A DNA stretch of 64,000 bases from Phoronis australis (GCA_002633005.1 NMRA01000050.1:513353-577352); one strand, 5' to 3'; shown: positions 37,515 through 62,748, numbered from the stretch's first letter. The notes: generated from the sequence alone by a model not told the origin. Numbers and translations: made by a program.

Positions 37515-37795
37515 TATACTTAAGCATGACTCAGTATGGTTCTTTGATGTGTAGCTAGATATACTTAAGCATGACTCGGTATGGTTCTTTGATATGAGTG
37601 GCTGGATATACTTAAGCATGACTCAGTATGGTTCTTTGATGTGTGGCTGGATATACTTAAGCATGACTCAGTATGGTTCTTTGATGTGTAGCTAGATATA
37701 CTTAAGCATGACTCAGTATGGTTCTTTGATGTGAGTGGCTGGATATACTTAAGCATGACTCAGTATGGTTCTTTGATGTGTAGCTGGATATACTT
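37515..37795. repeat. 45-47-bp minisatellite, ~6 copies
   Basis: atacttaagcatgactcagtatggttctttgatgtgtagctagat repeated. Confidence 0.93.
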
Positions 37796-38909: not shown

Positions 38910-40650
38910 TGTAACATGATGAGCTCACTCTTTGTTTATACTGTAAGCTGCAATTAATCATGGCCACCAACGTAGCTTTGTGGCCTCAGTCACGCTTTGT
39001 ACATCTTACCATTCCGTTCATTTAATAGATACTCGTATATGTATGTGTATGTGTATGTGTATATATATCGAAACAAGTCTCTCTTGCCTTAGTCTTGATG
39101 GTACATAAAACATTACATGGTGCCAGGAACACTGGAGCTTTCAGGACTGTCCTCGCCGTCAATTGACTGGGATTCGAGCGACATCGTAAAAGCTTGGAGA
39201 TGTTTTCAACAACATGTTGACTGAATCTCCGCTTGACCTCAGGCCAAGAAAATGAAGAAGTAAAAGCCCGTACTTATAATTATACGTCAACAACAAAGGA
39301 AGAGACAAATCTAATGCTTGGACATCTAAGAAGGATAATCTGGAAGCTTATTACAAATGCTTTGCAGGCACTGTTCAACTGCGCCACAACCAAGAGTTTG
39401 AACACTTAGCCTACAAGATCAATAATGCTGTACAAGGGGAGGATATAATTGAACAGATCGTGACTCCCTCCGCCTTTCAGTAAAAACTTCCTCATATGCT
39501 AATCCAAACAAAATGATCCGCGACCAAATGGACTATGGAGTAAAAGACGAGAAAATACGTGAAAAGCTAGTAAATAGAGGAGATTCATTAACACTCTAGA
39601 AAAGGCAATCTCGAAGCTTTGCTATGTTCAACCGTGCCACAACTCGATCAGTGTTAGAACGCTATAAGTTCAATAATGCTGTTCAAGGGGAGGATATTGA
39701 ACAGTTCGTGACTCACCTCCGCCTCTATGTAAAAACTTGCTCAGGTGCTACTCCAGATGAAATGATCCACAACCGAATGGTCTTTGGAGTAAAAGATGAG
39801 AAAATACATGAAAGCTAATTAATAATGGAATTTCATTAACACTAGAAAAGGCAATTCAGACAGAGCAACGAGTATGCCCAGGAGCAATTGCAGGCTAGAT
39901 CTGATCAAGAACCTGTACATGCTCTAAATCATGCAACAGACCACGACATACTGGATGAAATCCATGTCCCAGTGCAGTAAAGCAGTATCCTAATGAAAAT
40001 TGTGACAACTGCTGATTGCAACATTACAAGCCAGACATATGTCCCGCGAAAGGGAAAAGATGTGCAATATGTGACAACTGGAACCATTTTGCATTTATAG
40101 CTAGTTGGACAAACCACCAACCACAACATAAAACTGTGAGTAAACCTAATTACCACAAACCTAGAGGTAGAAGACCTGTCCATTACCTTGGATCAAGTCA
40201 GTATTTAGAGTTGATTCTATTGAAACTGGCACAGGAGATCAAGCATTCGTTAGACGAGTCGGACCCGGTGGACAAGAGATCAGATTTAAAATACTAAAGA
40301 TCCTGGTTTAACTACGAACATTATACTAAAAGCAATATTCCATAAACTCGCCATTCTTAATGTCATACTTGACGCTCACACACTGAACCTGAGAGTGTAC
40401 AATGGTGCAACATTGATGCCCATTGGCTTATGTTGATTACTGACCGAAGGCACGAAGTACGCAAGCAAAGTACTGTACAATTCATTATAGATACATCACC
40501 CCAAATTTTTGGTTATCGTGCAATTCTGGATTATTTTTTGTCAATCAAATTTATTGAATGCCATGGAGACCGCGAGCACGATTTCCAAAGCAGCCATAAT
40601 GGCTAACTACAGCGACTTGTTTCAAGAAGTTCGCAAATGTATCAGAGGTG
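38910..40650 (+). mobile_element. decayed Gypsy LTR retrotransposon: 5' LTR (38910-39117), PBS, gag-protease remnant
   Basis: TGTAA...TTACA LTR then tggtgccagga PBS; ELSGLSSPSIDWDSSDIVKAW; MIRDQ..GVKDEKIREKL; CPAKGKRCAICDNWNHFA knuckle; many stops. Confidence 0.8.
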
Positions 40651-41929
40651 ATGAGCCACGAAACTACATGCTGCAGGACCATAGTCCTGTATGTATGCCT
40701 GTGCAGCTTCAAATCCCCCCGGGCTCACCAGACACGGCGTCACCAAAGAAAGGTCGGCATACCGACACCCCCTAAAAGATAGAGGAAGTCGCGAATAAGA
40801 GGTATTGGCAGCGAGTTTGGAAAGTGAAGATGAGGATGGAGATGGGAGAGGTGTACTGGGAAAGGGCTCCATTCAAGGACACGCCAGTATCGTGAAAAAG
40901 GTAACCCGTCACGTGCTTTTTTTCTTAAACATGGGTAACACTCCGGGATAATCACCAACATATTTTAATTATATAGCCAAATAGTCTGACTAACTAACAA
41001 TGTCTAACCAACACCAACATATTAATTATAGTCCAAGAAGCACACACTTGTTACACAATCCGTAATAGAATAAAGTTTAAATAAACGCACCACCCACAAT
41101 TCAGACCCGAAAAACACACCGCCATTTTGAACTTACCACGAACCCAGAAGTACAATTCATTCAGGAACCCAGGCTTAGCATACGCCGTCTGTGCGACTGG
41201 AGCAGTATCTGTTACCAGCCTGCAAACGCAGATAAAATAATCGACAGCGCGCCTTAACGGTAATAAATTCAAAATACGGACAATTGCATCGAAATTTTTG
41301 AAGAAATGTGGCAAATAAATTTTGACAGAAATTATTTTGCCAGACTCTGGCCCACAACCGATCGGACCCGGGGCGGACTGAGACCAGACAAAGGCGAACG
41401 GTAAAGGCATACAGTTGAGTAGTATATAGCTCTCTAGAGTTAGAGATAAATATATTGAGTTCCGGTTCCACCTGCGTTGTTGTTCCCACATGGTGGCAGC
41501 GGCGGTTTGTGTCATTTTTGCGATTCTGGCGAAACAACTGGGCATTATAAGCTGATACCTTCCAGAGGTTTGTGTCAAGGACCTTTCGTGCTGTTTTCGA
41601 TGGATTTTTTTTGTGTGAAATAACAGAAAATAGCCTGGAATAGCCCATAAAAACGGTTGACAGTGTAGTTATAAAAATTTCGGAATTTTCCATGACGTCA
41701 TAGACCTGTCTTGTTCTGTACGTTTGAGCTGACTGTTCATGTGGATGGAGTGTGAGACTCTATACGATAACTTTTTACGCGCGACTTTACATTATAAATA
41801 CAGATATACAAAAGTTTGTGAATTTAATGACTGAATAAATTTACCAGTACCTGCACGAGTGACACGCAACATTAGTGAACACGTTAACGAAGGGACACAT
41901 AAGCTGACAACATTCAGAACATTACAAAA

Positions 41930-42320
41930 ATGGCAACATATCAGATACCAGAGCCAACCCCCATGTCAATGCAGGGGAACGTGGCGGAGAACTGGCGATA
42001 ATTTGAAACTGCGTGGATAGACTACATGACTGCCAAATAACTAGATATAAAAATGGTTAAGGCTTGCAGTACCCCAGACCTGAAAGGGGTATCTATTGTT
42101 GCTGCAACACTCTGCTCTATCATGGGACAGGAGTGTAAGCGAGTACTGTGTAACTTACCTAACGTCAGTGCAGAAGACAGGCGCAATCCCCAGAAGATCA
42201 CTGATGCCTTAAAGGTTACTTTGTCCCTCAAAAAAATGTTCTCTACGAGAAATTTGTCTTCAATCAAGCAGCCCAAAAAAACTGGAGAGACCATACTTTA
42301 AGAATCGTCACCACTTGACC
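41930..42320 (+). mobile_element. Gypsy gag N-terminal fragment
   Basis: MATYQIPEPTPMSMQGNVAENWR*FETAWIDY..VAATLCSIMGQEC; upstream LTR-like end ..gcaaca at 41871. Confidence 0.75.
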
Positions 42321-42334
42321 AACTGAGAAAGGGG

Positions 42335-43727
42335 TAACTCATGATGTTGTAATGCAAGTGTCGGCATCTTATTTGAATCTTGGTCATGCGGTATACATGG
42401 ACAATTTTTACACCAGTGTGCCTTTATTTGAGGATTTATTGTCCAAGAGAACCTTGGCGTGTGGCACCATACGCAGCAACAGAAAGGGCCTGCCGAATGA
42501 CACAATGTCCAAGACCTCCCCTGCAGTCAAGGGAATGAAAAGGGGAGACTCCCTTTATCGTTTCAAAGGGTCTGTGACAGCTATGTCCTGGAAAGATAAT
42601 AAACTAGTAACACTGCTAACTACTATTCCTGTAGGCGAGGAAACTGAGAATGTGGCACGGTCTAGTAAGCGAAATGGCCAGTTCGAGAAAATTGACGATC
42701 CACGGCCGATGGCGATCGGTCTGTACAACGCATACATGGGTGGCGTGGACTTATCAGATCAGCGGATTAATGGGCACAAACGGTTAATGCGTGGAACTGT
42801 ATGGTATTTAAAGATATTTTGGTTCTTGATTGACATTTGTCGGATCAACTCATACCTTTTGTATCAAGAGTTGAAAGGATCCAAAATCAAGATGAAAGAT
42901 TACACTCTGCAGCTTGCCGAGGAGTTGATCGGTAACTTTACATCGAACTCTCGAAATGTCGCTGTCGTTCCGGAGTTGGTGCACCGCAATCGGAACCTGG
43001 ATCATGCCCCTGAGCTCTTGAAAACGCGATCTGCATGTACTGTACATTTGCAGAGGGTTGATACACCATGTGTATGCTCAGTATGCAAGGTGCATCTTTG
43101 CCCCGCTCCGTGTTTTTATAGATTCCATTACATGAAGGACTAACAGTTTCGCGATCCACAGCGACTGGAAGCACCATCGCAAAGAAAAAAGAAAAAGTAA
43201 AAAAAAAACAAGACACTGACTGTGCTGTTCCTTGTGTAATGGATTAATTGGATATATAAACTTATGAGGACTACTCAGAACAGTGAGTCTGATACCAAGT
43301 GTGCAAAATGTTTTTTTTTTTACTATTTCGAAAGTACTCATGCAAACTTTTTCAAACGTTCAGAATTTTTTAATAACATGTTTGTGCTTGTGTTCCTGGA
43401 GTTTCAAGTGAGCAAGTCTGTTCATAACAAAGCTACCGTGATTTAAACATAAAAAACAAAAAACACGATTCCATTACTGTAAATTTTGATGATTGTTCAA
43501 CCTGCTGTAGTTTCTTCAAAACATTCGCTTTTGCAAAGATAAAATAAATGTCAGATGCAGAATTTTATCCTCTTTCCGAAAATGTAAATATGTTGTATGT
43601 TTGTTTAAGAAATAAACATGTCATGGTAATTTGAGTGCACACACTGTTGTTGTTGTTATCGCTTACTGTGAAAGTGGGTCAGGCTCACAGGCACTTTAGT
43701 GTAGAATGTATGTCAGGCCCCAAATGG
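42335..43727 (+). mobile_element. piggyBac 3' half: transposase C-terminus (PGBD4-like) and right end
   Basis: VYMDNFYTSVPLF..CGTIRSNRKG..WKDNK..YNAYMGGVDLSDQ..C-terminal Cys-rich domain (ORF to 43143); ends gccccaaatgg|TTAA. Confidence 0.92.
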
Positions 43728-43739
43728 TTAAGATCATAT

Positions 43740-44390
43740 ATGTCATTTGATGAAATGGAAGATGAAGATCACCACTATGAACCTACTCCGCTTCAACTGT
43801 TAGACTTGGAATAATTTTAAAATTCCCACTGGACTACATGCACTTAGTGTTTCTTGGAGTAATGACGCGTCCTCTCGATTGTGGGCTGGGATTGTGGTGT
43901 AGACAGACCATTTCTGATTGTTTGCTGTCCATGAAGAAGTTAATCCCTAAAGAATTTGCATGAAAACCAAGATCTCTTTTAGAAGTGGACTGATGGAAAG
44001 CCACAGAATTTCACTGTTTCCTTCTGTGTACCTCAGTTGTATCATTAAAGGGTATAACAGACAATGCTATTTATAATTACAGTATAACTTCTTGCTTCTT
44101 TCAATTGCCATTCACCTGTTATCAAAGGCTACATCCGGTGCAAATGCCTGTGATTATGCAGGAAGGCTGCTGCGTCACTTTGTCAATGAATATGTTTATC
44201 TCTTTGGATGCCATCTCCTGACTTACAATGCTCACAGTTAAATACATCTGGTTGATGATGTGAAAATACATGGCCCTTTGGACACCTATTCTGCCTTTCC
44301 TGTCGAAAATTACTTGCATTGCCTGCAAAGATTAGTTAGGAAACCTGATTGTGAACTTCCACAAATTGCCTTGAGGTTATAGGAGAAGCA
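43740..44390 (+). mobile_element. CACTA/EnSpm (CMC) transposase fragment (missed by ORF track)
   Basis: FPLDYMHLVFLGVM; IPKEFA*KPRSL..*WKATEF; YNAHS*IHLVDDV..GPLDTYSAFPVENYL..LVRKP. Confidence 0.85.
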
Positions 44391-44413
44391 TGTTCAAGTC
44401 AAAGGATGCAATG

Positions 44414-44514
44414 TGTTAGTAACGACCCCTGATGGAACTTGTACAAATGGAATAAAGCACTTCCGGTATAGTCATCTCAACGTGTTCTCTGGTGCTTCCT
44501 AACATGGTGTCAGA
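44414..44514 (+). mobile_element. short Gypsy-type LTR plus PBS
   Basis: TGTTAG...AATAAA...CTAACA followed by TGGTGTCAGA. Confidence 0.6.
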
Positions 44515-44631
44515 TTGAGCTCCCATGCCTGCAGAAGTCGAGTTTTGGATAGAGTGTGTGGTCAAGAAGCTTGAGTAGTCAACAAAGAAGCAGAGGACAC
44601 AAGTGATTAGTGTGTGATGGTGGACAATTAA

Positions 44632-45478
44632 CCCTCTTAGTGCTGCAGGATTAAACTTAATCCAAACCATTCCTACCCCTTCGCTGCTGCGAGATCAAGT
44701 ATGCGACCATGACCTTTCATTCATGTCCTATCTTGGGGGTCAATTTCAGCCAATTAAATACATTTATTTTTGCCCGGGTTCTTGTTGAGAACTTTGGCGA
44801 CGAATGAAATTACATGTTACAATTTGAATGGCAATTTTACCTTAAGTACTTCCCGAGATACAACGTGTCAAAAACCTGATTGGCCGGCGCTTTCTGACTG
44901 CCAGATGGTTTTAAAAATGGCGAGTAATAGAGGCGAGTACTTAAATTTGGAGCGTACTTTAGATATTATTGCACGATTCGGATTCAGAAGAGGAATTTGA
45001 GGGTCCTGAGTTAGAGGATATAGATAGTGGCGACGAGGACAGTGATCTGTAGGCGGTCATTGACGAGTTACCGGAGGAATGGGTGCTCGATCACGGCAAT
45101 CAACCAGTGCCGATCTGGTGTGTAAATTTTGACAAGACTGTTGGACGTCGTGGAGCGTTGTTGGACACTCGTCCTGCGGACTATTTTGCTTTATTTTTCA
45201 CCGAGGAATTGCTGACATTGATGCGGGACGAAACTAATCGGTATGCCGAGCAATGCATTCAAGAACGCGACTTGGCAAGATACGCGCGTTTGCGAGACTG
45301 GGTTCCAGTGACAGTGACCGATGTCAAGGCAGTGACGGCACTGCACATAGCGATGCCCATTGTCAGAACGCCAACTGTTCAGCAGCATTGGAGCACAGAC
45401 TGGTTGTTTGCGAACTCCTTTTTTCCCCAAATAATGTCAACAGACAGGTATCTGCTGATCAATAGTATGATGCACTTC
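44632..45478 (+). mobile_element. piggyBac 5' half: left end and transposase N-terminus
   Basis: TTAA|CCCTCTTAGTGC; acidic DSDSEEEFEG; PADYFALFFTEELL..ETNRYA..W.PVT..HWST..MSTDRYLLI..HF. Confidence 0.88.
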
Positions 45479-45697
45479 GGAAGTCGAGATTTCAGCTACG
45501 GCGTTACCGGAAATGAACATTTTCCTGAGTAAACAACTGTTGTGTGGCTATGCGATTTTATAAAGTTTGCCCAGTGTACTGTCCAGTGTTTGATAAATAT
45601 GAAGCTAGAATAGTAAAGAAAAGACAATCGTAATATCCTGCTACTGTTAGTGTTACTTCTGAGTGGAACACTGCAAAAAAATAAAAAAACCTTCATC

Positions 45698-47510
45698 ATG
45701 GCACAACCCGTTGCAAACAGGGCAGCAAATCTGATTCCCCCACCTCAGCCCATGGAAGTAAAAGGTCACCTAGCCAGCAATTGGCAATTTTTCCGCGAGA
45801 CATGGAAAAATTATGTCATTGCCACTGAACTGAATCTGAAAGGTGAAGCGATCATAGTAGCAACCTTGATGACTATAATGGGGAAGGACTGCTATCGGAT
45901 CTACCAAAATCTATCCCTCAGCGATGAAGATCGACAGGACTCGAGCAAGATTTTGGATGCTCTCACCAGTTATTTCGAGCCTCAGCACAACACGGTATAT
46001 GAACGCTATGTATTCAACAGCTGTGCGCAGGAACCTACAGAAGGGATTGACATGTATGTCAACAGACTTCGGAAACTTAGTGCAACTTGTAAATACAGGA
46101 CGCTTCTGAATGAGATCATAAGAGACCAAATTGTAATAGGGGTGCGAGACTCCACTTTGCGTGCTAGGTTATTGCATGAGAAAGATTTAACACTGGAGAA
46201 GTGTATAGACACGTGTCGAGCGAGTGAGATGTCGACACAGCAATTGAAAGCCATTGACGGGGAGGTGGAGACAGTCCATGCTGTGAATCCCAAAAGACGA
46301 AGCAAAATAAAAGTCAAGACAGCAGGATCTGAGCAAAAGGCAGAGGCAAGATCAGAGCAGAACATTCAGACAGACTGTGATTACTGCGGGACAACTCATC
46401 CCAAGCGCAAATGTCCTGCCTGGGGCAAGCGGCGCAAGAAATGTGGTAAAAGCAATCATTTCGCCAGTGTGTGCAGGTTAAGGGCAACTGCAGTCCACCG
46501 GATAGATGATTCAGAACCCGAAGACTCAGAATCGTCAGTTTTCGCGGTTCATGATGGCCGAACCAAATATCTGGTAGAACCTCTGGTCAGATACAAGCGA
46601 AGCGATGCCTGGATACCGCAAGTGTTTCAGTTAGATAATGGGGCAAGTGTGAACTGCCTGCGATATGAAGATTGCTACCGAATTGTGAACTCGAACGAGC
46701 CACTTCTAAAGAAGAGTAGCAAGAGGCTAACATCTTACAGTGGAGATCGAGTTGAAAATGTGGGGCAGGTGACGCTGACTTTTAAAATTAACGCCGAGAG
46801 GAGTACATTAAACTCAAAGTGGTGAAAAACATCATTAAAAAAACAAACAAGATGGAACTGATTTGTGGTTGGCCATTCTAGAACACCGCAATACCCTGGC
46901 TGCAGACAACACAGGAAGTGCAGCACAGAAGCTAATGAGTCGCAGAACAAGAACCCTCATTCCAGTTAGTGCTAGCAGACTAGAAGCCAATGTGGTACCA
47001 AAGGACCAGGTATTTCAGCAGCAAGTGGTCCAAAAACAAAAGGCGAAGATGTTCTTCGACAAAGGAGCAAAGAAGCTACTGCCACTAGTTATTGGACAAC
47101 CTGTACGTACGAAACTTAGGCTGCACTCATCAGCCGCCTGGACCGCAGGGAAAATCATATAAAGAGATTAGCTCCCAGGTCCTACCTGGCAGAGCATGAG
47201 AGTAGGGTCTATATGCAAAACAGGAACCATCTTAGGCCCAGTGCCGAGGTCGCCACTGCAAACCAGCCTCAACTGGTGGTGGATCCAGCAACTCCAGAAT
47301 CACATAGCGCTCCAGCCAATGAGCGTTCACCACCTACACAGGGCAGCTCCGTAATACCGCCAGTGCAAAGAAGCCCTGTACCCACACCCATCAAGTTGAG
47401 CCCGTCACTACCTCTCGTCAAGACAAGCAACCCTCTGACTCAAGATGGGATGCCTTGGGATGGTTACACCACTCGTTCCGGATGTACCATAAAAGCTCAA
47501 AAAAATAGTT
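45698..47510 (+). mobile_element. Gypsy element: open gag-protease ORF (45698-46825) joined to integrase C-terminus; RT/RNase H missing
   Basis: IRDQIVIG..LTLEKC; CDYCGTTH..CPAWGK..CGKSNHFASVC; LDNGASVN; then LEHRNT..SAAQKLMSRRTRT..PRSY..NRNHLR..TRSG. Confidence 0.9.
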
Positions 47511-47529
47511 ACCGGCGGGTCGTAACTCG

Positions 47530-47900
47530 AAAAGTGATCTTACTTTTGCTCAAAGGGCCGTTATGAGATGGTCTTAATACCATGGTGATGAGCATTTGTC
47601 CTTTCCTGTTCTAGAGATAGTCAACAACACATCTGCCAAAGTGGTCATACCAGTCATTGACCGCATTTTCAGTGTGTTCAGTGTGTTCGGTTTGCCTAAA
47701 GTGATCAAATCGGACAATGGACCGCCCTTCACCGGTCATGCTTGAAAGCAATTTTTGACTTCATTTGGTGTGCAAAACCATAAAATCAAACTGTTGTTGC
47801 TTCGAGCTAACGCACAAATGGATAACAATAATAAACCGATGAAGACCATTCGAGCTGCGACAGTGGAACGACAAAAATTGGAAGTCCCCTGTGCCCTATT
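47530..47900 (+). mobile_element. Gypsy integrase core (rve) fragment
   Basis: TSAKVVIPVIDRIFSVF..GLPKVIKSDNGPPF..FLTSFGV..RANAQ. Confidence 0.85.
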
Positions 47901-49289
47901 TCCTTCGTGTATATCAATCAAGGCCGCATTGGAGTATGTTATTCACGCCCTTCAGAGTTATGTTTCATCATGAGCCATGAACAAAGTTGCATGAAGCGCC
48001 CACAAAATTTCACAATCTCGTAGAACCCTCGACTTTAGGACGAGACAGAAAATCCGCGAGAGAAAATCTGTGTACCATACATTTACCGTGGAACTTATTT
48101 CATTATACTTTTGACACCTTCCCAATTTGTGCATTATGATCACAGCAGCTAGTAACCAAAGCAGGCCGAGTTATTCATTCATGAATGCCTAGCTTCTGAA
48201 GAGGTTCATATTATTGGCAAAAATGTTGAAGATGAATACACTGATGAAGTTCCACAGTAAACGAATGAACCCTAAAATGAAGAATTATTGTACTGCTTAT
48301 CCTCATTTATAACAAATCAAAATCATTTACTGCAACAATGGAGCCTAATGAAGTACAGTTTGCATCCTCCATTTCTTACATTTTAGTGATGACCCTCCAC
48401 TCTCAAATGTAAGAAATGTTTTAGTGAAATTTTTTGACCTCTGCTGTCAGTCTGTTGATCCTCTGACTTGCACAACTATTCATTTATTTACCAAATGACA
48501 ACATCCAGGGAATGACACAAGTGGTTGAGGTCTTGTTGAGAAAAATGGGGATTTGCAAAATGCAGGTCCCAGCTGATTGTCTAGAAAAGGCAAACCGAAA
48601 AACATACACCTTGATTTCTTCAGCTAAATTTTCAGCCTAGAAAATTTTTACAAAATAGCTAAAGAAACAAGATGTTTTTCTAGACAGTGCTTTATCATCA
48701 GGTGGAAGCAATCCATGACCACGCCTGTGCTCCATCTAACATCCCTTAAACTCCAGTCCCAGACCAGCAGACACCAAACCCATGATACAGTTCTTAAGTC
48801 AAATGACAACTTCTTGGGATGCCGTGTAATGAATGTTCATTGCTGCCATTGTTACATTGTATTGAAGTGGTGATTATTACCTGTCCACAACTTTCAATCT
48901 CATCATCGGGGAACTGGGGGATCTCTGGATCACATAGTCACCTGTGAGCAGTGCTAGGCAGTGTTCCAACTCTACTTCATGGTTTCACTTGAAACGAAAT
49001 ATTGGTAAATGCTGGGCAGCTCACAATCACGGTCTCTGTTAAAGTCTTGCTTATTCCCCATGATTTTAAGCAATTTTCAGATTTTTTGGAAAGTAGCAAA
49101 TTTTAATACTGATTGAATTGCTATGTCTGGTAGCATGCCAGTCTTTCCAATAAAATGTACTTATTATCTCATCTTTTTCAGCAACCCCGTCTGTAATTCC
49201 AGCCAACAAGTAGTGAATGTTCGACCTCAGATGAAAAGGAAGCTTTAAACTTTGTGGTTTGACCGCTTTATGGCTCAAAAGGACCAAAG

Positions 49290-52760: not shown

Positions 52761-53069
52761 TTTGCCATTGATTTGGCAGCTTAAAAAATAAAATCGATAG
52801 CAACCCAGCATTAAACAAAGGAAAGCAGACTGGAGTTTCTGTATTAAAAATAAAATGAAACATATTTAAAACAAACGGATCATTTGGGAAATGCAACTTT
52901 ATCGAGATAAACCCAAGTTTTTTTGTTATTTTGTGATATCAAACCTATACTTTCGACATTTCAGGCTGTAACTTTGTGTAAATGTGAGAGAAAACCAATT
53001 TCCGTAAAATAAAAACCACAATTGTTGAGAAAATAAAGGCCTTTCCCTACTAATTTAAATACAGATTTT

Positions 53070-53423
53070 TGAAGATGCCGAGATCAAGGTGTCAGCTTTG
53101 ACAATTGGGAATGATTAGATCACCACTTTGATGTTTTGTTGAATCATTGTTCAAGTTGGCATCGTCTCTGTAAGGCAGTATTATACCTCCAGCAATTTAA
53201 ACGATACATACAATTGCCAGTCTCTACAGAAGACACAAAATCACCAGAAAAATCCATTCTATGCTTTGTCCAGTTGAAACATTTCAGCTCCGCACTGAAG
53301 AATGCAAAACGACAGATTGATGGAAACTCAGAGACCAATGTGGTACAGGTATCCAAGCGTAGCTGGATATACTGGTTGGATGCTATCCTGATAATACCCA
53401 AGCATCATGTAATCATGCAATAA
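53070..53423 (+). mobile_element. BEL/Pao pol fragment
   Basis: HCSSWHRLCKAVLYLQQF..EKSILCFVQLKHF..SWIYWLD..IIPK. Confidence 0.7.
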
Positions 53424-55072
53424 GATCATTGATTATGGACCACATACATCATTAAGAAAGCATATATTCATTTAAACGTTTAAAGTGAAAGAACAAGAGA
53501 ATTGTGGTTTACGCTAACAGTGAAGACAAGATAGCCACCCACATACTGGCTTTCTTTGTCGTTGGTATAACATCAGATCGTCCTCTTAGGTTCGTTTTAG
53601 GTTATTTTGGAATGATCGGCGCCACATCCAGCCAGCTTTTCAATTTTAGAACGCCATATTCATACTAGAAACAAACCGTCATTTAAAGATGTGTAGCGGT
53701 AACTGTTATTACCAAATATGATTAAATTATTCATTGCAAAAGACAACGCCATAGTGGAAATAAATATGGAAGTAAATTTCAGGTAGAGGCATCAACCGCC
53801 GACAAAGTGAGTACAAACCAGAAGTTAGATATACACGACACATGCCGCCGAACCATTTATGTGTTTTTGTTTGACAATGCCTTGTTATGGTTTGTAAGGG
53901 ACTGGACATATTTCCTAAAGACATCAAAGACATCAAGGAACTATCAGTACAATTTTGGTTCAGGTCAAATTCAAGATTCATGTGGGTGAGTCATGTCATC
54001 CCCTGCCAATTACAATAACAATTTGAAGTTAAAATAACTTGAGATGACTAAAGTAACACATAAGCTCAAGTGGAGCTCAACTCATATCCGTTGATGAGCG
54101 TCCCAATGGCAGCTGAGGTTGGTGATCGTATTAACTATACAGCTGGCCGAACCACATAAACTCTGAAAATGTTTATTGAGTCGCTAATACTTTTAATAAT
54201 CGTTATGTTTTTTAGACAATCCGTGCATCTGTGGCAAACGTAATAGAAGCCTTCTCAGATGAAAGCACGAGACAGTGAAACACATACCAATGTTCCACAG
54301 AATGTTTGATTGCTTGAATGTTCGTTCGGAATTTGAAGCTTTGAAAAAGTTCAAATCAGACCTGCTTCCGTACACTAATGTGGATGATTACAAATTTCAA
54401 GGCAAGTAAGCTAATAAGAATGGGAAATCTCTCATTGACTTGAAGACTGGTATGTAGGTAAAGACTCTTAATTTCAGTAATGAATCGTAAATTTTATGAC
54501 TTTTTTCTGGAAATTTCCTAACAGGGAAAGTAAAGTGCTCTGTACTAGATGTTGCTAGATGGTACTCTTGACTCCCTTGGAAATACGTGGCGAACTAGTG
54601 GAGTCTTGCATGACGTTACTTTTTTCTCAAGAAACTTGCCCTACTAAACGCACACCTACCTGTAGGAATACCTTAGTTCTAAGAGATGAGGAGCAGCAAC
54701 TGAGTATCTGGCATTTAAAGTCCTTAACTTAAAATGCCAATGTGACTCCAGTATCCGAAAGTACTTACCTAATAAAATCTTATTTTCAATACCCTTTCGT
54801 TATATTTGTTTCGCCTTTCGTGCCACAAGCGGATAATTACCGGCTATCATCGGTTATTTCCATACCCACAATTCGGGCTCATCAGTTCAGGAAGTTGTCT
54901 CGAATGCCGCCATTTTTCCTTGCGACAGAATGTGCTATCGCTTGCTCTAAAAGTCTTCATTATTTTATTTTATTAGTAATTTCTCGTGATTCTTTTGAAT
55001 ATATAGTGTATTTATAGTTCATAGTTAGTGGTCGTTGATTTTTTTTAGACATTGCGTGTATTTTTGTTTATA

Positions 55073-55150
55073 ATGGTGAATCGTTGTGTTGTGTTGGGCT
55101 GTGGCAACACGCATCGAACTGGACATGGATTACATTGGTATACAAATACC
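55073..55150 (+). mobile_element. THAP domain N-terminal fragment (transposon-derived)
   Basis: MVNRCVVLGCGNTHRTGHGLHWY. Confidence 0.6.
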
Positions 55151-55909
55151 CTTGTAATGGAGCTGTTGAACTCGACGACTCATCCAACCTACCAATGCGT
55201 GGAGCTTTAACATACTCCTTTGTCAAGCCAATATGCGAGACCAGATAAAGAGGAGGCAGTTCAGTCGTTTGTTATCAGGTTTCACTGATGAGTGACGACT
55301 TGATGCTGTTGAGCAGTGGACACACGGTGTTTTCTATATATAACTTTGTTATAGATATACCAAGGTTGTCGTTGGTTATTAAATTTACGTTCTCCAAACA
55401 ATCCATTCAAAAAATCATTTTTATAACAGTGAAAAGCAGAATTGGAAGCCTTGATTATTTAAGTTGTGCAATGTGTTTAGGTGTTTCACAAAACTGTGTC
55501 CCTATTGTGTATGTACTCAACATCTTATTGAGGTAACTGAAAGTCATGTTTCTTACTTTTATCAGTATAAATCTGTCAGAGAAGGTAGTAGCTGTGACTT
55601 ATTTATTCAGCTAGACGAATTAGGTTGAGGTGCTCTGAGACTGAAAACAAGACCGAAGCAAGAACTCGAGAAAAGTCTACTAAAATTTGGCGACTGCATA
55701 ATTCAGAGTACTGAACATACCCAGTAAATCTTATAGTAAAAGGTACACATTCTCAAAAATTCGAGCCCTCCACCATGTTTAGGCTTGGTGCCCTCATTGC
55801 AAAGTCTGGGAAAATCTCTCATGAAAGCCAACAACTTTGCACAGTTCGCCAGAAGACCTCAAGTTTATTTGAGCTAGCGCTGTGGCCAGGGGCCACCTAG
55901 GCCTAAGGG

Positions 55910-56245
55910 TAGCCTTGGTGCAAAGCTGTATACTAAACAAGCTGTATTTTAACGATAGTCCTCACACTGCTAGCTGGCAGGCTAGCTAAACTAAGGGCTG
56001 CTGCAGCAGTGTGACACATGACTAACGTAATTTCATGCAAATGTCTGAAACTACCTTAAGTATACAACATCTATGATTTGAACCTTTTGCTTCGACAACC
56101 GCATGCCTTCACCGTTCACCAGTGTCTGGTCTCGGTCCGCACCGAGTCTAATCAGCTGCAGGCCTGATAGCCTGCCAGCTAGCTATATGAAGACAATCGT
56201 CTGATACAGCTTGTATACTTAGTATACAGCTTTGTACCAAGGCTA
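55910..56245. mobile_element. palindromic MITE with ~75-bp TIRs
   Basis: tagccttggtgcaaagctgtatactaa..ctagctggcaggcta / tagcctgccagctag..ttagtatacagctttgtaccaaggcta. Confidence 0.8.
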
Positions 56246-56639
56246 CGGGCCCGAGTGTGGCAAAAAAATATATCAAAATTTATTCAAATTTCGTCAGCAA
56301 TTTCGATACAATTGTCCATTTTAAGGTGCGCTGTGAATTATTTTATCCACGTTTGCAGGACGGTAACGGACACTGCTGCAGTGGCACAGAAATCATACTA
56401 AGCCTGGGTTCCTGAAGGAATCGTACTTCCGGGTTCGCGGTAAGTTCAAAATGGCGCAGTGTTCTTCAAGTTCAAATCGTGAATGGCGCGTTTATTTAAA
56501 CTTTATTCCATTACGGATTGTGTATTAATTATGGGGTAGATACTTCTTGGATCCTTACAACATTTACTAACCATGTAATAAGGGTTAAAAACGTGTGCTT
56601 TTTGAACTTTTAAGTTATTCATTGGTAACTAAAATGTTG

Positions 56640-57385
56640 AATAACAGAGATCTATATTTCAGAGTAAATCACAATTTGGTCAAGCAGGATGCAACGGTCA
56701 AGATCGAGGAGTGCTTGTGTAACGGTAAGGTGGGCAACGACCACTGCAGCCACGTGACAGGTCTCCTGTATACTATCAGTCACTTCAAGAAGATGAGTTT
56801 TAAGAGCATTCCACCCATCGTTGTAAAGACCTCCTTGCCGCAGGCATGGCATGTACCCCACAAGAAAAATGAGATAAGGGCAAATCCTGTTGATGCCATG
56901 GTTGTAAACAACGTCAAGCCAGTGAAGTCCAAGAAAAGTGGTGGAGGGAATTGTGCCAAAAGTATTTTGCCTGGTGGAACAGTCAATTCCAGTTGTTAGT
57001 TTCATATAGCAGCTTGTAGTTGTAAATAACCTGTCCTCTATCAACAGTGAATCACAAGCTCTCATTGTGCTGAGTAAGGTGAGTGACCTAGAACTGTCCG
57101 ACTCCAAATTTGATCAAGTACCACAAGGAATGGTACTATTGTACAAACAGCAGTACCAGAGAAAACCAGAGGACAATATTCACATCGATTCTCCAGAGCT
57201 GCTTGTTTGACCTGTCGCTGTCAAAGACATACATGCCAACTTTGACAAAACCACAAATGGACAGATACAATATTATGGTTTGTACATTGATAACACTTTA
57301 AAGTTTCTTGAGCTGGAGACGAGGCTTCAGTCAGAATGCCATCTGTGGACAGCAGCAAAAAAGGGACGACTAACTTCTAGGAAGA
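56640..57385 (+). mobile_element. SWIM zinc finger plus YqaJ-like exonuclease fragment (ISL2EU-type accessory gene)
   Basis: CLCNGKVGNDHCSHVTGLLY..TSLPQAWHVP; LELETRLQSECHLW..GRLTS. Confidence 0.65.
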
Positions 57386-58385
57386 CAGTAATATGACAAT
57401 TGTCCCCCCCCCCTCCCCAGAGTCATAGCGTGCATTGTTTATACAATTCGAGACACAGCAGTGCAGCACCATTCACGTTGTCCTGTCCTCATCTAGCTGT
57501 TGTTCAACCCGGAGACATCTTAACGTGAACAGAGCGACTGTATACAACATGTAAGTACTAGCTGACTGAAACAGACTGAAATTTAACAGAAAACTGCACC
57601 TTATGACCCCAAAGTTGCATGTAATGACCCTAAAGTTTGTGACTGAATTTAGTTTACAAATGCATAACATATGAAAGGTCTAGCTCAAAAATCACTTTTG
57701 CACTGAATGACCTTTCGACACAGTGCTTGTTCGGCTCTTGAGGATGAAAAATTATGATTACCGATCTTCGGGTCGTGAAACCTTTTCAGCAAACATGAAG
57801 AAAATACTATGGCCCATTTCAGAATGTGAAAGCCAGTTTAGTTGGACAAACTGACTTGTGTGAATTGCTTTAGTGGATTGAAAAGGAAGAATCACGTTTT
57901 TGCAACTGAACTTGGTAAATGAACAGTAGTCTACTGAATGAAAGCAAGAGTTGAGAACAAGTATGTATATTTCGTTGAAAGTGATTTTCTTCATATCCTG
58001 TACAATGGTTTCACATAAGCCTATAAGCATTGTCACGTGATTCAGTCTTCCAATATGTAAACTTGATGTAAATATCAAAAAACATCTATGGTAAGCACTT
58101 TTCAGTTTTGCACAAATTTCCATTTTCCGTTTCTCAAAGGCCAAATGTTGACATCAGAATTTTGACTAAGTTTTGTTTTGTTACAGCTTTTGGCTTATTA
58201 CTGAGCAAGTTAACAAAATAAAATTCCATGTCCACCATACTTAATCATAACATTGAGGGCAACTTCCACTACACATTTTGCATTTCGTGCAAAATGTGTA
58301 GTTTGAAAACCGCCCAAAGCAATGTTTAATGACGTTAACGTAAAATTATTGTACAATAAAGTATGAAGTTCGTAATTGTTTTAGG

Positions 58386-58900
58386 TGTACATCAGATCAG
58401 AGTGACAGCAACACCGGGGTAGGTTGTGACGCATAACTACCAAGGGTGGATGAACGAAGAATTGATGTTGGAGTGGATAGAAAAGATTCTCCGGCCATAC
58501 ACTCAACGCCGCCCATCCATGTTAGTCCAAGATTCGTTTTCTGCCCACGCGACGCAAGCCGTGGACGAAAGTTTAAAGCGTAATCATGTTATACCAGCTA
58601 TCACTCCGGGTGGCTGCACGTCGGAAGTTACAGCCACTAAATGTGTCGGTCAATAAGCCTTTCAAAGGGTTTGTCAGAGAAAAGTGGGGTTTGTACATGC
58701 AACAGCAACCTCTGGGCCAATCATGAATGTAAACAAGCCATCGATGCAGCCGATGGTTGACTGGCTTGAGTACGCATAGGAGAAAACGAGCCGTCGAGTC
58801 ATCCAGAGGAGCTTTCTTTTAACTGGAATTATTCCGCGACGAGATCTTCCACTCGGCGATTCTGATTCCGATTCTCACGAATCATTCCATAGTTTTGACA
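58386..58900 (+). mobile_element. pogo/Tigger DDE transposase C-terminal fragment
   Basis: GWMNEELMLEWIEKIL..LVQDSFSAH..PGGCTS..QPLNVSVNKPFK..SFLLTGI. Confidence 0.88.
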
Positions 58901-60239
58901 AAAACGTGAGTCTCCCTGGTATGCGAAGCTCTTTCGATCCATTCAACTAAAGCCATGTTTGATGTTCAATTGTTGCTTCAAGAGGGATTTAATTGATTAA
59001 TGAACAATTGTCTTTGTAAATAAACGGCAAAAGTAAAAGAAAAAAATATTGCAACTGAAATGGAGTTTTCTTGTTTTTGATCCACACGTTCATTAGAAGT
59101 GTTTAACGCTGCATAAGATTCAGGTTTGGTCGCATTTTAACGGAACAAAAGTACAGTCATGCTCCATACGTTTCCGTGTTAGTGTCTTCAGACAGAAGAG
59201 CAATTGTACTTTCACAAACAGGATGGCTTACCTTTGGTGAACTACTGCTTCCCTCTCATCAGATGGTCCCTGATTTTAGAGGCCGACAATAACGATTAAA
59301 ATTTGGATTTCAGTCGGTTAGCTTAAGTGGCGATTAAAATACCGATCAAGACATTACCCGGCAAAATGAGATTTCGAAATCATTGAGGCGACAGACGAAG
59401 GGCGTACAACTTTTCCTATCAAATAATTCTGATCTACCCTTAAAAAATTCATGCTTATGCGAACAGTTTATCAAAAAGTTTCTGAAGAACTGCCAACGAC
59501 ACTGGCGAAACCGCCAACGTCGATTTGAGATGCAATAAGATATCAAAAAGCAATGTATGTCTCAATTTGATTTTTTATTACTTCAAGAGGATACAACAAG
59601 AACAACCAGTGGGGTAGCCAGGTCTATTATCAACGTATGAATTCCGAAACCAAGAGGCGGCAGAACTTTTGCATGTACATTTCGAGAAAACTGAGAATGT
59701 TCAAAATTGGAGGGCATTTCGGCGAAAATGGGAGGATTTAACACCTCACATGTGTTGTGGGAATTCTAAAAAACGGGAGCCTATCACCTAAATCAAATAG
59801 GAATGATTGGCAATTCATCTGTGACATTATGTTGCCTAATTTTTTCTAATACATGTTTTATCTACTGCACTGCAGTCGGAAACTAAATAAGGGCGGACGG
59901 TGTCGATGCCAAAAGCCAAAGACTTGAAGCCTGTGTCTTGAAGTTAGCGTAGGAGCAAAGGGAAAACATGAAGTGATAAAGCTTTCAAGTACCACGGGTA
60001 TTACAGAGACAATATTGTTACTAGTGGTAATTCACATTAACAAATCATCCTCTCGAAGGCCACCCTTGTCTTCAGTCATTCATTGTTGTTACCGATGTTT
60101 CATCTATTAGTTCGAACATTTGAGTTTCATCTCAAATAGTTCATACGACCAATTTTGTATCTATTAATTCGTACTCAAAGCTCTAAAGGGAAAAATAGTT
60201 CGTACACTAGTGTACAAATTAATAGAGAAAACACCATAG

Positions 60240-60650
60240 ACCTACCTCAGAGATATTTCAGCAGTCACCCAAAAGGGTTTTCTGGTCTCGTTGCACTAAA
60301 AGACAGGCAAATCCGTCTACATATCAACCGAAGTGTAGAACCAGTGGCCCACCCACTAAGGAGAGTCCCGCACAACTTGAAAGACAAAGTAGACAACAAA
60401 ATAAAGGATGATGGCTCAATACCGTTATCATTCCCAAAAAGGACAACCAGATTAGGCTCTGTATTGACATGGGAAAAGCAAATAAGGCGATTATCTGAGA
60501 ATGACACCCAGTTCTAACCGTTGACAAGACTCTGTTGAACACAAATGGTTCTACAGTTTTCAGCAAATTGGACCTTAAATGGGGATACCACAAGATTGCG
60601 TTGGATCCAGATTCCAGAGGTATCACAACTTTTGCTGTATAATCGGGTTT
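60240..60650 (+). mobile_element. Gypsy reverse transcriptase N-terminal fragment
   Basis: PLRRVPHNLKDKV; PKKDNQIRLCIDM..ANKAI; FSKLDLKWGYHKIALDPDSRGITTF. Confidence 0.88.
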
Positions 60651-61259
60651 GAGACAATAAATAATGTGTTCGTCTCAAGAAGAATAACAAGAAATTTCAC
60701 GAATGTGCAGGCAATTCATTAAGCACGGGGGCATATATCATGCAAAATAACGGGAAGAAGACGAAGAAGCCCTCACAGAAATGGTGGACTTGACATCCCA
60801 TGTGAATATACTTTTCGATGCGAGAGACGACGAATTGTGAATGTTATGCAAAAAAAACTTCAATCAGTAACAGGAGCGTGGTGATTGATAGTTTACTCGA
60901 GGACATTGCGTATAGAGTAGTTGAGTACACTTACTTGTGATGCATAATGGTCTATGTTAATGCATTCCTGTACTTATTGTTAATACATGTCTGAAATTCT
61001 TCCCGAGTTATTGTTTTATCGTGAAAATTGCCTCCTGTTCTACCTAGAATGTCAAAACAGTACCATCCGGGAATTGCCTTGCTTTTTAGCGAGGTTTAAG
61101 TGTTACTGAACGGGAGGCTGGTAATGCCATCCTAATTGTATAAACTGCATGTTTTTGTACCTATTCAGATTATATCTCGTTAACACCTTTGTGAATATTT
61201 TTTTCAACATACAAGCTGAGAGTTGGAGCGATGGCGTGAGAAAAGTGCGCTCTGGTCAA

Positions 61260-61497
61260 AGCTGGTCACCGGTCCTCTATGAAACCGGCTAGCCAGCAGT
61301 CAGTTGTTGAGTGGCTCTACCGTTCGTGGGCTGAAGTCGATGACGCCATTGTAAAGAAGTCATTTCTGGTCACCGGAATCCTGCCTCCTATCAACCAAAC
61401 AGACTTGCCCACTCTCAGAGAAATTATAGGGTCAGACGATAGTGATTCAGACTTCGAGGGTTTTAGTAACTCAAAAGACGACAATTTTAGTGCTTAA
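61260..61497 (+). mobile_element. second pogo transposase extreme C-terminus
   Basis: VVEWLYRSWAEVDDAIVKKSFLVTGI..DSDSDFEGF. Confidence 0.75.
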
Positions 61498-62748
61498 ACT
61501 ACGGTATTGAAGTTATGGAAATTGATTGTATGTATAAAATTTATGTTGAACTTTTGCTCCACAATGTTGTGAACAGTTTTGCAAAAAAATGTCACTAAAC
61601 TTTGTGGAATTCTTTGTTGCATTGTCTATGGTGAGTGTGGAAAGTTTTATTAAAATTGGTTCATGGTTACTATGGAAATCTTGACTTTGAATTTCCGTTA
61701 ATATTGACCTCAATTATCTTAAAATTATAGTGTCACAGGCATATAAACCTTCATAACTTTCGTTAACATGATCAGATCTGAGACAGTTTTTACCATTAAA
61801 ACAGCATCAAAATTGCTCCCAGAAAGTGTAAATTAAAAAATGTCCATTTGGTAGATTACGACTCATTTTGGGGTGGAGGGTCACAAATAAGACCAACGTG
61901 GAGCATTGAAAGGCGCCCACGAATGCATTGCAAATGGTGTGCTTTTAGGGTTATCTATTAGTATCATAAAAATGCCCATTAGATGGCGCAAAAACATACA
62001 ATCCAACCAAAAACAGGAACATGCCATATTTCATAAAAATCTGTCAAGGAACTTCAGAGAAACAAAGGACGACAGAATAAAATAAGTAAGAAAGTTCAAA
62101 CAAATTTCTAAACGGACCCATCCTCAGCAGCAAATTTCACATACAAATTCCATCATACAGAGACAAACCTCAACACAGTAAGACTGACTAAGTCAATGCA
62201 GTGCTCACATGTGGGAAACCCCTACCAAATGTGTTATTTATAAACATTTATAAGTTTTAATGTCACAACTTCAAAGAGTATTTATTAGATTTTAACTTAA
62301 ATGTTCGTTATCAAAGCTTAATACAAATTACAATTGCTAAGCTTAAACTAAAGTTATCAACAATAAAAGACTGGGTTTACTTTACATTATGCAAGCGTAG
62401 TTTTACAAAAGTTGCGTCATGTGGTTGAAAGTTTTAGACACATAGTTTTTCAGCAAAATGCTCATTTTTATGGTTCAAGTGAGAAAACAAATCCTACACT
62501 CGTATGCCTCAGGATTTTGACGAAATTTCCAAGAGGTTTTGTCCATGTCATAAACCTGAGACTCGTGCAGAATTCTCTATCTCTGGGTGTGTGCACGTGT
62601 GTGTTAGTGTGTGGAAACCAGTACATAGTTTTACCTTTAAATTAACTATTTTTGGTGTCAATTAGTCTGTTATAATTAATGCTTACTGCAGCTGGACAGA
62701 CATTGTTCCTTTCAAGAACAATTCTGTAACCACTAGCTGAGTCAAAAG

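What the first reader, a model, noticed from the sequence alone, without database searches (positions are those of the whole stretch)
38910..61500. ~23-kb mosaic of unrelated TE fragments all on the same strand: candidate flamenco-like uni-strand piRNA cluster
Seen: about 16 recognisable fragments (7 Gypsy pieces, BEL, 2 piggyBac, CACTA, Sola3-like, THAP, SWIM-YqaJ, 2 pogo) are all in + orientation. None is full length, and several are abruptly fused (gag to mid-piggyBac near 42330; piggyBac N-terminus to Gypsy near 45480). With 15 independent random insertions the chance of one shared orientation is 2x0.5^15, about 6e-5 (independence is an assumption). Stops at likely Arg positions (FA*KPRS, VD*WKATEF) are consistent with CGA-to-TGA decay. 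Knowledge: uni-strand piRNA clusters such as Drosophila flamenco accumulate TE fragments antisense to the precursor transcript. Inference: a minus-strand precursor here would give antisense piRNAs against both retro- and DNA transposons.
Basis: partly seen in the sequence, partly recalled or inferred. Interest (0 to 1): 0.82.

Follow-up and report, generated by a model that had tools for sequence, protein, structure and literature searches.

The report
One-way transposon graveyard with antisense RNA
Between the ends of two genes that face each other lies about 23 kb of broken jumping-gene pieces that all read on the plus strand while the RNA made there comes almost only from the minus strand, so the stretch is likely a source of transposon-silencing small RNAs, although those small RNAs have not been looked at.

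Summary
With tools run on both strands I confirmed 9 solid and 2 weak transposon coding fragments between 39.3 and 61.4 kb. They are 5 Gypsy, 2 piggyBac, 1 pogo and 1 SWIM-YqaJ, plus a weak CACTA-like DUF4218 piece and a weak second pogo. All are on the + strand, none on the - strand, and none is full length. BEL, Sola3-like and THAP were not confirmed. One uncharacterised 400-nt repeat occurs in both orientations. The chance of one shared orientation is about 0.004 to 0.001, not 6e-5.

The block is not an intron. It lies between the 3' ends of a + strand mucin-like gene (ends about 35.56 kb) and a - strand Kelch-like gene (stop about 62.75 kb).

Three stranded RNA-seq runs of the same species label give 87 to 98% minus-strand RNA over 38.9-53.6 kb, with no splice joints. 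It is strongest at 35.6-44 kb and sparse beyond.

No small-RNA run was available, so piRNA production is untested. My best reading is a uni-strand, downstream-of-gene piRNA source locus (about 0.45). The main rival is an ordinary transcribed graveyard.

This scan has noted the same layout before on other DNA.

The parts
16024..35560 (+). Left flank gene B: a gel-forming-mucin or VWF-like gene. It has VWD, C8 and TIL exons. Its last coding exon carries a cystine knot (34909-35259), the stop is at 35260, and an AATAAA lies at 35539.
   Evidence: Pfam on ORFs, sequence, RNA depth 72 with first mate on minus.
35602..38936 (-). The best-covered part of the minus-strand RNA. It has no recognisable TE coding fragment, no minus-strand ORF over 112 aa, and no Pfam hit. 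It contains a 45-bp tandem repeat at 37515-37795.
   Evidence: read laying bins show 83-98% minus-strand RNA at depth 1-8 in most bins, with one X3 bin at 0. ORF list, Pfam, TRF.
39271..40198 (+). Gypsy gag fragment (about aa 47-258), with a tandem duplication inside it.
   Evidence: tblastn with 23 Gypsy polyproteins, self-blastn, the repeat finder family D2.
41043..41452 (.). Uncharacterised repeat whose second copy lies inverted at 56061-56533. It is the only element found in both orientations.
   Evidence: Self-blastn 78% identity, the repeat finder I1 84%. The minus ORF 41054-41668 has no homologue.
41912..42282 (+). Gypsy gag N-terminal fragment (aa 19-128). It abuts the piggyBac piece.
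   Evidence: tblastn E 5e-16.
42319..43140 (+). piggyBac transposase C-terminal half, an open frame of 274 aa.
   Evidence: Pfam DDE_Tnp_1_7 2.2e-35, profile positions 187-349 of 349.
43961..44379 (+). CACTA-like DUF4218 remnant with two in-frame TGA stops (weak).
   Evidence: Pfam DUF4218 E 1.2e-4, 22 bits against a cut-off of 27. Codons checked.
45053..45529 (+). piggyBac transposase N-terminal part.
   Evidence: Pfam DDE_Tnp_1_7 1.6e-16, profile positions 2-92.
45617..47359 (+). Internally deleted Gypsy element. It has an intact 402-aa gag frame joined to the integrase C-terminus. Protease, RT, RNase H and the integrase core are missing.
   Evidence: the search for homologous proteins gave 23 gag-pol relatives, best 60% identity. 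tblastn aa 11-379 then aa 1156-1337 of 1364.
47587..47989 (+). Integrase fragment of a second Gypsy family.
   Evidence: tblastn E 8.6e-13. Pfam rve 1.3e-4.
56595..57387 (+). SWIM-YqaJ exonuclease gene fragment of a repeated family.
   Evidence: 239 homologues at E up to 0.001. 13 of the 15 long ones scanned carry YqaJ and 2 carry SWIM. 167 of 167 tblastn HSPs lie here on +.
58423..58836 (+). pogo-type DDE_1 transposase fragment.
   Evidence: Pfam DDE_1 2e-9 and 6.8e-9.
60245..60651 (+). Gypsy reverse-transcriptase fragment.
   Evidence: tblastn E 4.5e-28. Pfam RVT_1 2.7e-5.
61249..61386 (+). Second pogo-like C-terminal remnant (weak).
   Evidence: tblastx against 58699-58836, 30% identity over 46 aa, E 2.7e-5.
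62752..63231 (-). Right flank: terminal coding exon of a Kelch-repeat-like gene. A splice acceptor ttacag lies at about 63231 and the stop at about 62752. Its 3' UTR runs leftwards to about 61.3 kb, judged from RNA depth.
   Evidence: Atlas Kelch clusters, score 0.95. PDB KLHL12 E 2e-4. Sequence. Minus-strand RNA at 61.3-63.3 kb. Pfam gave no Kelch hit at E up to 0.01.

Best explanation
This is a 23-kb heap of truncated transposon genes that all read on the + strand. It lies just downstream of a minus-strand Kelch-like gene and is transcribed almost only from the minus strand. It likely acts as a uni-strand piRNA source whose precursor would yield antisense small RNAs against Gypsy, piggyBac, pogo and other elements.

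Shown:
- the co-orientation of the fragments;
- the position between two convergent gene ends;
- unspliced minus-strand RNA, antisense to the fragments.

Inferred:
- that this RNA is one long transcript, started by read-through from the Kelch-like gene, by a promoter inside the block near 42-44 kb, or by both;
- that it is cut into piRNAs;
- that selection for antisense piRNAs produced the orientation bias.
For: (1) Orientation. 9 solid and 2 weak TE coding fragments from at least 5 superfamilies are all on +. The same methods found none on -: Pfam ORFs and read-through on both strands and tblastn (95 of 95 and 167 of 167 HSPs on +).

(2) RNA. Stranded RNA-seq from three runs, calibrated on both flanking genes, gives 83-98% minus-strand RNA at 35.6-38.9 kb and 87, 89 and 98% at 38.9-53.6 kb. 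No joints were listed, and there was no + strand read-through from the highly expressed mucin-like gene.

(3) Locus-specific reads. Run X3 carries its own fixed differences in these reads, so they come from this locus and not from other copies (table 3).

(4) Layout. The block starts about 1.4 kb after the stop codon of a minus-strand gene and faces against it. This matches read-through clusters in mosquitoes (10.1101/2022.08.22.504762, abstract) and piC-DoGs in mammals (PMC11615739, section 10).

(5) Baseline. In mouse, sense and antisense TE content within 10 kb downstream of genes was similar (about 15% each) except at productive piRNA clusters (PMC11615739, section 10). Antisense bias is therefore not the default behind a gene.

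(6) Precedent in a mollusc. In the slug Arion vulgaris, clusters are predominantly uni-stranded. A top cluster makes piRNAs from the minus strand over densely packed + strand TE fragments (PMC11615739, section 9). The nearest named Gypsy relatives of this window are molluscan.
Against: - No small-RNA data were seen, so length, 1U bias, phasing and strand of small RNAs are all unknown.
- RNA is uneven. It is highest over the TE-poor 35.6-38.9 kb, falls across 39-44 kb, and is mostly below depth 1 (at most 2.5) from 44 to 61 kb. X3 has signal in only 4 of 21 bins at 38.9-53.6 kb. One precursor across the whole block is therefore not shown.
- The tissue of the runs is unknown.
- At 53.3-61.3 kb the strand ratio is only 70-83%, on very few reads.
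- The block is small: 23-27 kb against 227-1085 kb for flam-like clusters.
- One repeat lies in both orientations.
- About 8 kb (48-56 kb) holds nothing I could name, and non-coding repeats could not be oriented without a repeat library or the genome.
- Mollusc clusters are reported to be enriched in young TEs (PMC6128900, passages), whereas several pieces here are old and carry stops.
- Among some 250,000 scanned windows, a chance probability of 0.001 to 0.004 will occur many times.
Confidence: 0.45

Rival explanations
1. An ordinary intergenic transposon graveyard that is crossed by a non-coding or read-through minus-strand transcript. The shared orientation would come from chance plus mild selection against sense-strand TE signals (polyadenylation and splice sites) inside a transcribed unit. 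No piRNAs would be made.
For: - The best-covered RNA (35.6-44 kb) looks like a 6-8-kb unspliced transcript that overlaps only the first three or four fragments.
- Coverage over the remaining 17 kb is sparse.
- The chance probability of 0.001 to 0.004 is not extreme for a scan of very many windows.
- One repeat is present in both orientations.
- The fragments include old, stop-ridden pieces.
Against: - DNA transposons, which show little orientation bias in transcribed regions (my own knowledge, no call), are co-oriented with the LTR elements.
- In mouse there is no general sense/antisense difference downstream of genes (PMC11615739, section 10).
- 11 of 11 is stronger than the 60-75% antisense bias usual for introns (recalled, no call).
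- The direction of the RNA is the one predicted in advance.
Confidence: 0.38
2. The block is an intron, or a 3' UTR intron, of a minus-strand protein-coding gene. Its antisense TE bias would then be the ordinary intronic one.
For: - A minus-strand Kelch-like exon lies at 62752-63231.
- Minus-strand RNA rises again at 35.6-39 kb, as a distant terminal exon would.
Against: - The Kelch-like frame ends in a stop codon at about 62752, so later exons would be non-coding.
- No joint was listed in either lay. The two stretches overlapped only at 44-53.6 kb, so a 62.7-to-below-44 kb joint could show only as loose ends.
- The 4 loose-end consensus strings I searched, out of the 36 rows listed across the two lays, do not match anywhere in the window. 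A further 46 and 108 loose ends were not shown.
- No minus-strand ORF at 35.6-41 kb exceeds 112 aa or has a Pfam hit.
- Depth at 35.6-39 kb (3-8) exceeds that of the Kelch-like exon bin (0.35-1.7).
Confidence: 0.07
3. The fragments are not independent. The mosaic would have been copied or moved as one composite unit, by segmental duplication or as cargo of a large element, so a shared orientation would carry little information.
For: - Abrupt junctions lack target-site structure (42282/42319, and near 45.5 kb).
- The piggyBac C-half precedes the N-part, which points to rearrangement.
Against: - Self-comparison finds no large internal duplication, only a 240-nt tandem copy and one inverted 400-nt repeat.
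- Composite origin would still need the parts to have been co-oriented when first assembled.
- The genome is not held, so copy number could not be checked.
Confidence: 0.1

Closest known systems
Uni-strand piRNA clusters of the slug Arion vulgaris (PMC11615739, section 9 read)
   Same: TE fragments are densely packed on one strand, with the RNA products from the opposite strand. The host is an animal of a probably related group: the nearest named Gypsy relatives here are molluscan.
   Different: In the slug the piRNAs were sequenced (strand ratio over 100, 1U bias). Here only long RNA was seen, and its coverage is uneven.
Read-through clusters: piC-DoG of mammals (PMC11615739, section 10 read) and core clusters of mosquitoes (10.1101/2022.08.22.504762, abstract and outline seen)
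   Same: The block begins just behind the last exon of an expressed gene on the same strand as the RNA. Its TE content is antisense to that gene. Sparse same-strand reads continue past the gene end.
   Different: Continuous read-through from the Kelch-like gene is not shown. RNA is higher at the far end (35.6-44 kb) than at the gene, which suggests a second start. piRNAs were not tested.
Drosophila flamenco and flam-like clusters (PMC10643416 and PMC11400887, passages read)
   Same: Strand bias of TE remnants opposite to the direction of transcription. Gypsy pieces are prominent (5 of 11).
   Different: Those clusters are 227-1085 kb, and their bias is driven by Gypsy elements alone. This block is 23-27 kb, and piggyBac, pogo and SWIM-YqaJ pieces share the bias. 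A promoter, follicle-cell expression and Piwi dependence are unknown here.

Membership tests
uni-strand piRNA cluster (general) | Dense, uniquely mapping 24-32-nt small RNAs from one strand, with 5' U bias | not testable with these tools
   The look-up of sequencing runs listed only three long RNA-seq runs and one small old run. No small-RNA library was listed.
uni-strand piRNA cluster (general) | TE remnants mostly antisense to the transcribed strand | tested here: met
   11 of 11 confirmed fragments are on +. RNA is 87-98% from the minus strand at 38.9-53.6 kb. One unnamed repeat lies in both orientations.
uni-strand piRNA cluster (general) | One long single-stranded precursor spanning the locus | tested here: inconclusive
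   Minus-strand reads occur in 17, 15 and 4 of 21 bins (X1, X2, X3) at 38.9-53.6 kb, without joints. Depth falls from 1-8 to mostly below 1 (at most 2.5) beyond 44 kb. The start site is unknown.
Drosophila flam-like cluster | Size of hundreds of kb, with strand bias carried by Gypsy/ERV elements only | tested here: not met
   The block is 23-27 kb, and DNA transposons are co-oriented as well. Compare PMC10643416 passages.
read-through (DoG) piRNA cluster | Lies directly downstream of, and on the same strand as, an expressed gene's last exon | tested here: met
   Kelch-like terminal exon at 62752-63231 on the minus strand, with minus-strand RNA at 61.3-63.3 kb. The first TE piece lies at 61386.
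read-through (DoG) piRNA cluster | Continuous transcript from the gene's promoter across the cluster | tested here: inconclusive
   Only sparse reads at 44-61 kb, in X1 and X2. Raw short reads cannot link them to the gene.
intronic TE block with ordinary antisense bias | Block flanked by exons of one minus-strand gene | tested here: not met
   A stop codon ends the Kelch-like frame at about 62752. No joints were listed. The left flank is the 3' end of a + strand gene.

The most novel reading that the evidence does not exclude
A compact (about 27 kb) read-through type uni-strand piRNA trap sits in the gap between two convergent genes of a probable mollusc. It uses the Kelch-like gene's transcription, plus an internal start, to make antisense piRNAs against both retrotransposons and DNA transposons. 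Together with the similar layouts this scan has noted in cephalopod, sea-urchin and fish DNA, it would mean that 'TE heap facing against the upstream gene' is a widespread way for animals to build piRNA clusters, and one recognisable from sequence alone.
Probability: 0.3. Interest if true: 0.6.

Novelty: new member of a known kind. Interest (0 to 1): 0.4.

Why it matters
If small RNAs confirm it, this locus would be a sequence-predicted piRNA cluster outside the model organisms. It would have a simple, testable architecture: a gene end, then a co-oriented TE heap, then an antisense transcript.

It would also support the idea that clusters arise by read-through behind genes in invertebrates as well as in mosquitoes and mammals.

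Of the eight similar notes from this scan that I saw, six report no RNA test and one reports an opposite-strand spliced non-coding RNA. Here stranded RNA data could be laid on the locus, and they show RNA antisense to the fragments.

If small RNAs are absent, the locus is an ordinary graveyard and of little interest.

Tried and rejected
- Whole genome not held, so there is no genome-wide strand background and no copy-number check.
- No RNA holder was listed for the 10-kb query. Only runs with the same species label were offered.
- Read pile-ups at 48747-48784, 55734-55768 and 62024-62085 are partial matches with loose ends on both sides. Two loose-end strings at 48.7 kb and two at 38.1 kb match nowhere in the window. 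I treated these reads as coming from other loci and left the bins 48275-48941 and 55340-56673 out of the strand sums.
- Pfam on + strand read-through of 47.8-56.8 kb gave 0 families.
- The 50176-50799 segment found no homologue among longer proteins. This is weak evidence.
- ORF 49378-49845 gave no usable atlas hit.
- The THAP-like ORF 55049-55207 matched THAP11 only at E 0.43.
- The long minus ORF 41054-41668 found no homologue of near length. It lies in an A-rich stretch of the + strand and is probably not a gene.
- Rfam and tRNA scans of 35-64 kb found nothing.
- Whole-window tblastx against itself gave E-values inflated by linkage to the self-match, so I did not use it.
- Base-composition skew (A over T on + across 36-62 kb) fits either TE sense strands or transcription asymmetry, so I did not use it as evidence.
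- The paper PMC11067994 had nothing on cluster strandedness.

Full report
WHAT THE WINDOW IS

The window is eukaryotic, no whole genome is held for it, and it carries a 739-N gap at about 32.6-33.5 kb.

Pfam on every stop-to-stop ORF of 45 aa or more shows two + strand gel-forming-mucin or VWF-like genes.
- Gene A has Mucin2_WxxW, VWC and LDLa exons and a cystine knot at 11684-12025.
- Gene B has VWD, C8 and TIL exons from about 16.0 kb and a cystine knot at 34909-35259. Its stop is at 35260 and an AATAAA lies at 35539.

No transposon family was hit on either strand in 1-35 kb.

At the right edge, the minus-strand ORF 62752-63303 resembles Kelch repeats.
- The atlas places it with Kelch clusters at score 0.95.
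- The PDB search matches KLHL12 at E 2e-4.
- Pfam itself gave nothing at E up to 0.01.
- In the sequence it follows a ttacag acceptor at about 63231 and ends in a stop at about 62752.

It is not inside an intron of a coding gene.

THE OBSERVATION

I scanned both strands with the same methods.

Pfam on ORFs of 45 aa or more over 35.1-64 kb gave 7 ORFs with TE-family hits (8 family rows), all on the + strand. One further + ORF, 49378-49845, gave a weak non-TE hit (CHRDL_1_2_C, E 0.0085).
- piggyBac C-half, 42319-43140 (2e-35).
- DUF4218, 44242-44379 (1e-4, below the cut-off).
- piggyBac N-part, 45053-45529 (1.6e-16).
- A weak PNMA/gag hit in 45617-46822.
- A weak rve hit at 47578-47742.
- pogo DDE_1 at 58423-58653 (2e-9), with a weaker DDE_3 row on the same ORF.
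- A weak RVT_1 hit at 60505-60639.

Pfam on read-through translations (X at stops) of all three minus frames of 38.5-62.3 kb gave 0 families. The same treatment of the + frames re-found the hits above and added nothing at 47.8-56.8 kb.

The 402-aa ORF at 45617-46822 found 23 Ty3/Gypsy gag-pol polyproteins. The best has 60% identity, and the named ones come from the molluscs Mytilus, Littorina and Gigantopelta, a tick and a psyllid.

tblastn of those 23 against the whole window gave 95 HSPs, all on +, in five places.
- gag at 39271-40198.
- gag N-terminus at 41912-42282.
- gag aa 11-379 at 45695-46798, followed directly by integrase aa 1156-1337 at 46839-47359. This is one element that has lost about 2.3 kb of pol.
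- Another family's integrase at 47587-47989.
- RT at 60245-60651.

The ORF 56589-56996 has 239 homologues at E up to 0.001. Of the 15 long homologues scanned, 13 carry a YqaJ exonuclease domain and 2 carry SWIM. tblastn of the 150 listed homologues gave 167 HSPs, all on +, at 56595-57387.

A second pogo-like C-terminus at 61249-61386 is similar to 58699-58836 (tblastx E 2.7e-5).

The tally is 9 solid and 2 weak fragments from at least five superfamilies. The two quoted stops are TGA, in a CpG-depleted window.

Not confirmed:
- BEL.
- Sola3-like.
- THAP (E 0.43).

Against 'all one way', a 400-nt unnamed repeat at 41043-41452 recurs inverted at 56061-56533.

With 9 to 11 fragments the two-sided chance is 0.004 to 0.001 if insertions are independent, not 6e-5.

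Two cautions apply.
- Pfam alone saw about 7 of the 11 + pieces, so one or two decayed minus pieces could be hidden.
- The extra + pieces were found with queries seeded from + ORFs, although both strands were searched. The one long minus ORF inside the block that I tested has no homologue.

RNA

One search for runs was allowed. It listed no RNA holder, only three paired RNA-seq runs with the same species label kept as raw reads. I laid them on 33601-53600 and on 44001-64000.

The libraries are stranded.
- The + strand mucin-like last exon has first-mate-on-minus depth 72.4 against 0.77 (X1).
- The minus-strand Kelch-like 3' end has first-mate-on-plus 2.7 against 0, and 20 against 0.9.
- So first mate on plus means minus-strand RNA.

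From 35602 leftward limit to about 44 kb nearly all reads are of that kind in all three runs. Depth is 1-8 with about 18% of each run read.

Summed over bins, minus-strand RNA makes up:
- 83-98% at 35.6-38.9 kb;
- 87, 89 and 98% (X1, X2, X3) at 38.9-53.6 kb, with signal in 17, 15 and 4 of 21 bins;
- 70-83% at 53.3-61.3 kb, on very few reads.

Three bins with partial-match pile-ups were left out. Their loose ends match nothing in the window.

No splice joint reached the listing threshold. Nothing reads through on the + strand from the mucin-like gene.

X3 reads carry their own fixed differences across 35.8-41.6 kb, so they come from this locus in another haplotype and not from other TE copies.

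It continues faintly to the Kelch-like gene.

Depth at 35.6-39 kb exceeds that of the Kelch-like exon bin (0.35-1.7). Simple read-through is therefore not the whole story, and a start near 42-44 kb is likely (inference).

The transcribed 35.6-41 kb has no minus ORF above 112 aa and no Pfam hit, so the RNA is probably non-coding.

HOW IT MOST LIKELY WORKS

I commit to a uni-strand piRNA source of the downstream-of-gene type, at confidence about 0.45.

The mechanism would run as follows. Transcription on the minus strand, from the Kelch-like gene, an internal start, or both, would produce a long unspliced RNA carrying antisense copies of many TE families. PIWI-pathway processing would turn it into antisense piRNAs. 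Insertions in the useful orientation would be kept.

Supporting context:
- Slug clusters are predominantly uni-stranded. A top cluster makes minus-strand piRNAs over + strand TE fragments (PMC11615739, section 9).
- Read-through behind genes feeds clusters in mammals and mosquitoes (PMC11615739, section 10; 10.1101/2022.08.22.504762, abstract).
- In mouse, sense and antisense TE content downstream of genes is similar except at productive clusters (same section 10).
- Mollusc clusters cover about 0.27% of a genome and are TE-enriched (PMC6128900, passages).
- Strand-bias-based prediction works in Drosophila, with a true positive rate of 0.80 and a false positive rate of 0.011 (PMC11400887, passages).

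Against this reading:
- no small RNAs were seen;
- coverage is uneven;
- the block is small;
- one repeat is inverted;
- several fragments are old, whereas mollusc clusters are reported to be rich in young TEs;
- the very large scan creates a look-elsewhere effect.

The main rival (0.38) is an ordinary graveyard crossed by a non-coding or read-through RNA. The intron reading (0.07) fails on the stop codon and the lack of joints. A composite or duplicated origin (0.10) could not be tested without the genome.

COMPARISON AND NOVELTY

The locus works like the slug uni-strand clusters and the read-through clusters.

It does not meet the size and Gypsy-only criteria of Drosophila flam-like clusters (PMC10643416, passages).

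If true, it is a new member of a known kind.

This scan has noted the same layout on other DNA several times. Two of those notes led me to the read-through papers, which I then read myself. What this locus adds is stranded RNA showing antisense transcription.

Interest is 0.4. It would rise if small RNAs confirm the locus and fall to near zero if they do not.

I did not see the supplements of the cited papers. They may hold cluster coordinates and strand tables that bear on how common such small clusters are.

Noticed in passing
window 275-12025 and 16024-35260: Two tandem + strand gel-forming-mucin or VWF-like genes (Mucin2_WxxW, VWC, LDLa, VWD, C8, TIL, each ending in a cystine knot). The second is highly expressed in runs X1 and X2 (depth 72 and 16 on its last exon) and barely in X3 (1.8).
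   Followed up: partly
window 45617-47359: An internally deleted Gypsy. Its gag frame is still open for 402 aa (60% identical to a full gag-pol relative) and is fused to the integrase C-terminus. It may be a non-autonomous derivative rather than random decay. A few sense-strand reads lie on it (first mate on minus, 0.7-1.1 at 45.3-46.3 kb).
   Followed up: partly
window 48747-48784, 55734-55768, 62024-62085: Short stretches (about 35-60 nt) where 46-189 reads per run pile up with unrelated sequence on both sides. They are pieces shared with abundant transcripts or repeats from elsewhere in the genome.
   Followed up: partly
window 35830-41626: Run X3 differs from the window at dozens of positions where X1 and X2 agree with it, in all of its reads. 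X3 seems to come from a different haplotype or population.
   Followed up: no
window 14116-14672 and 37515-37795: Two tandem arrays: a 55-bp unit repeated about ten times between the two mucin-like genes, and a 45-bp unit repeated about 6 times inside the minus-strand transcribed stretch.
   Followed up: no
window 49836-50230 and 57404-57492: A short protein-level similarity, on the same strand, between the unnamed 50-kb segment and the region just after the SWIM-YqaJ fragment. It hints that the 50-kb segment is a remnant of a related element.
   Followed up: no
window 32573-33500: Assembly gap of 739 N inside the second mucin-like gene, with a repeat at 33.6-34.3 kb covered by reads of both orientations.
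   Followed up: no
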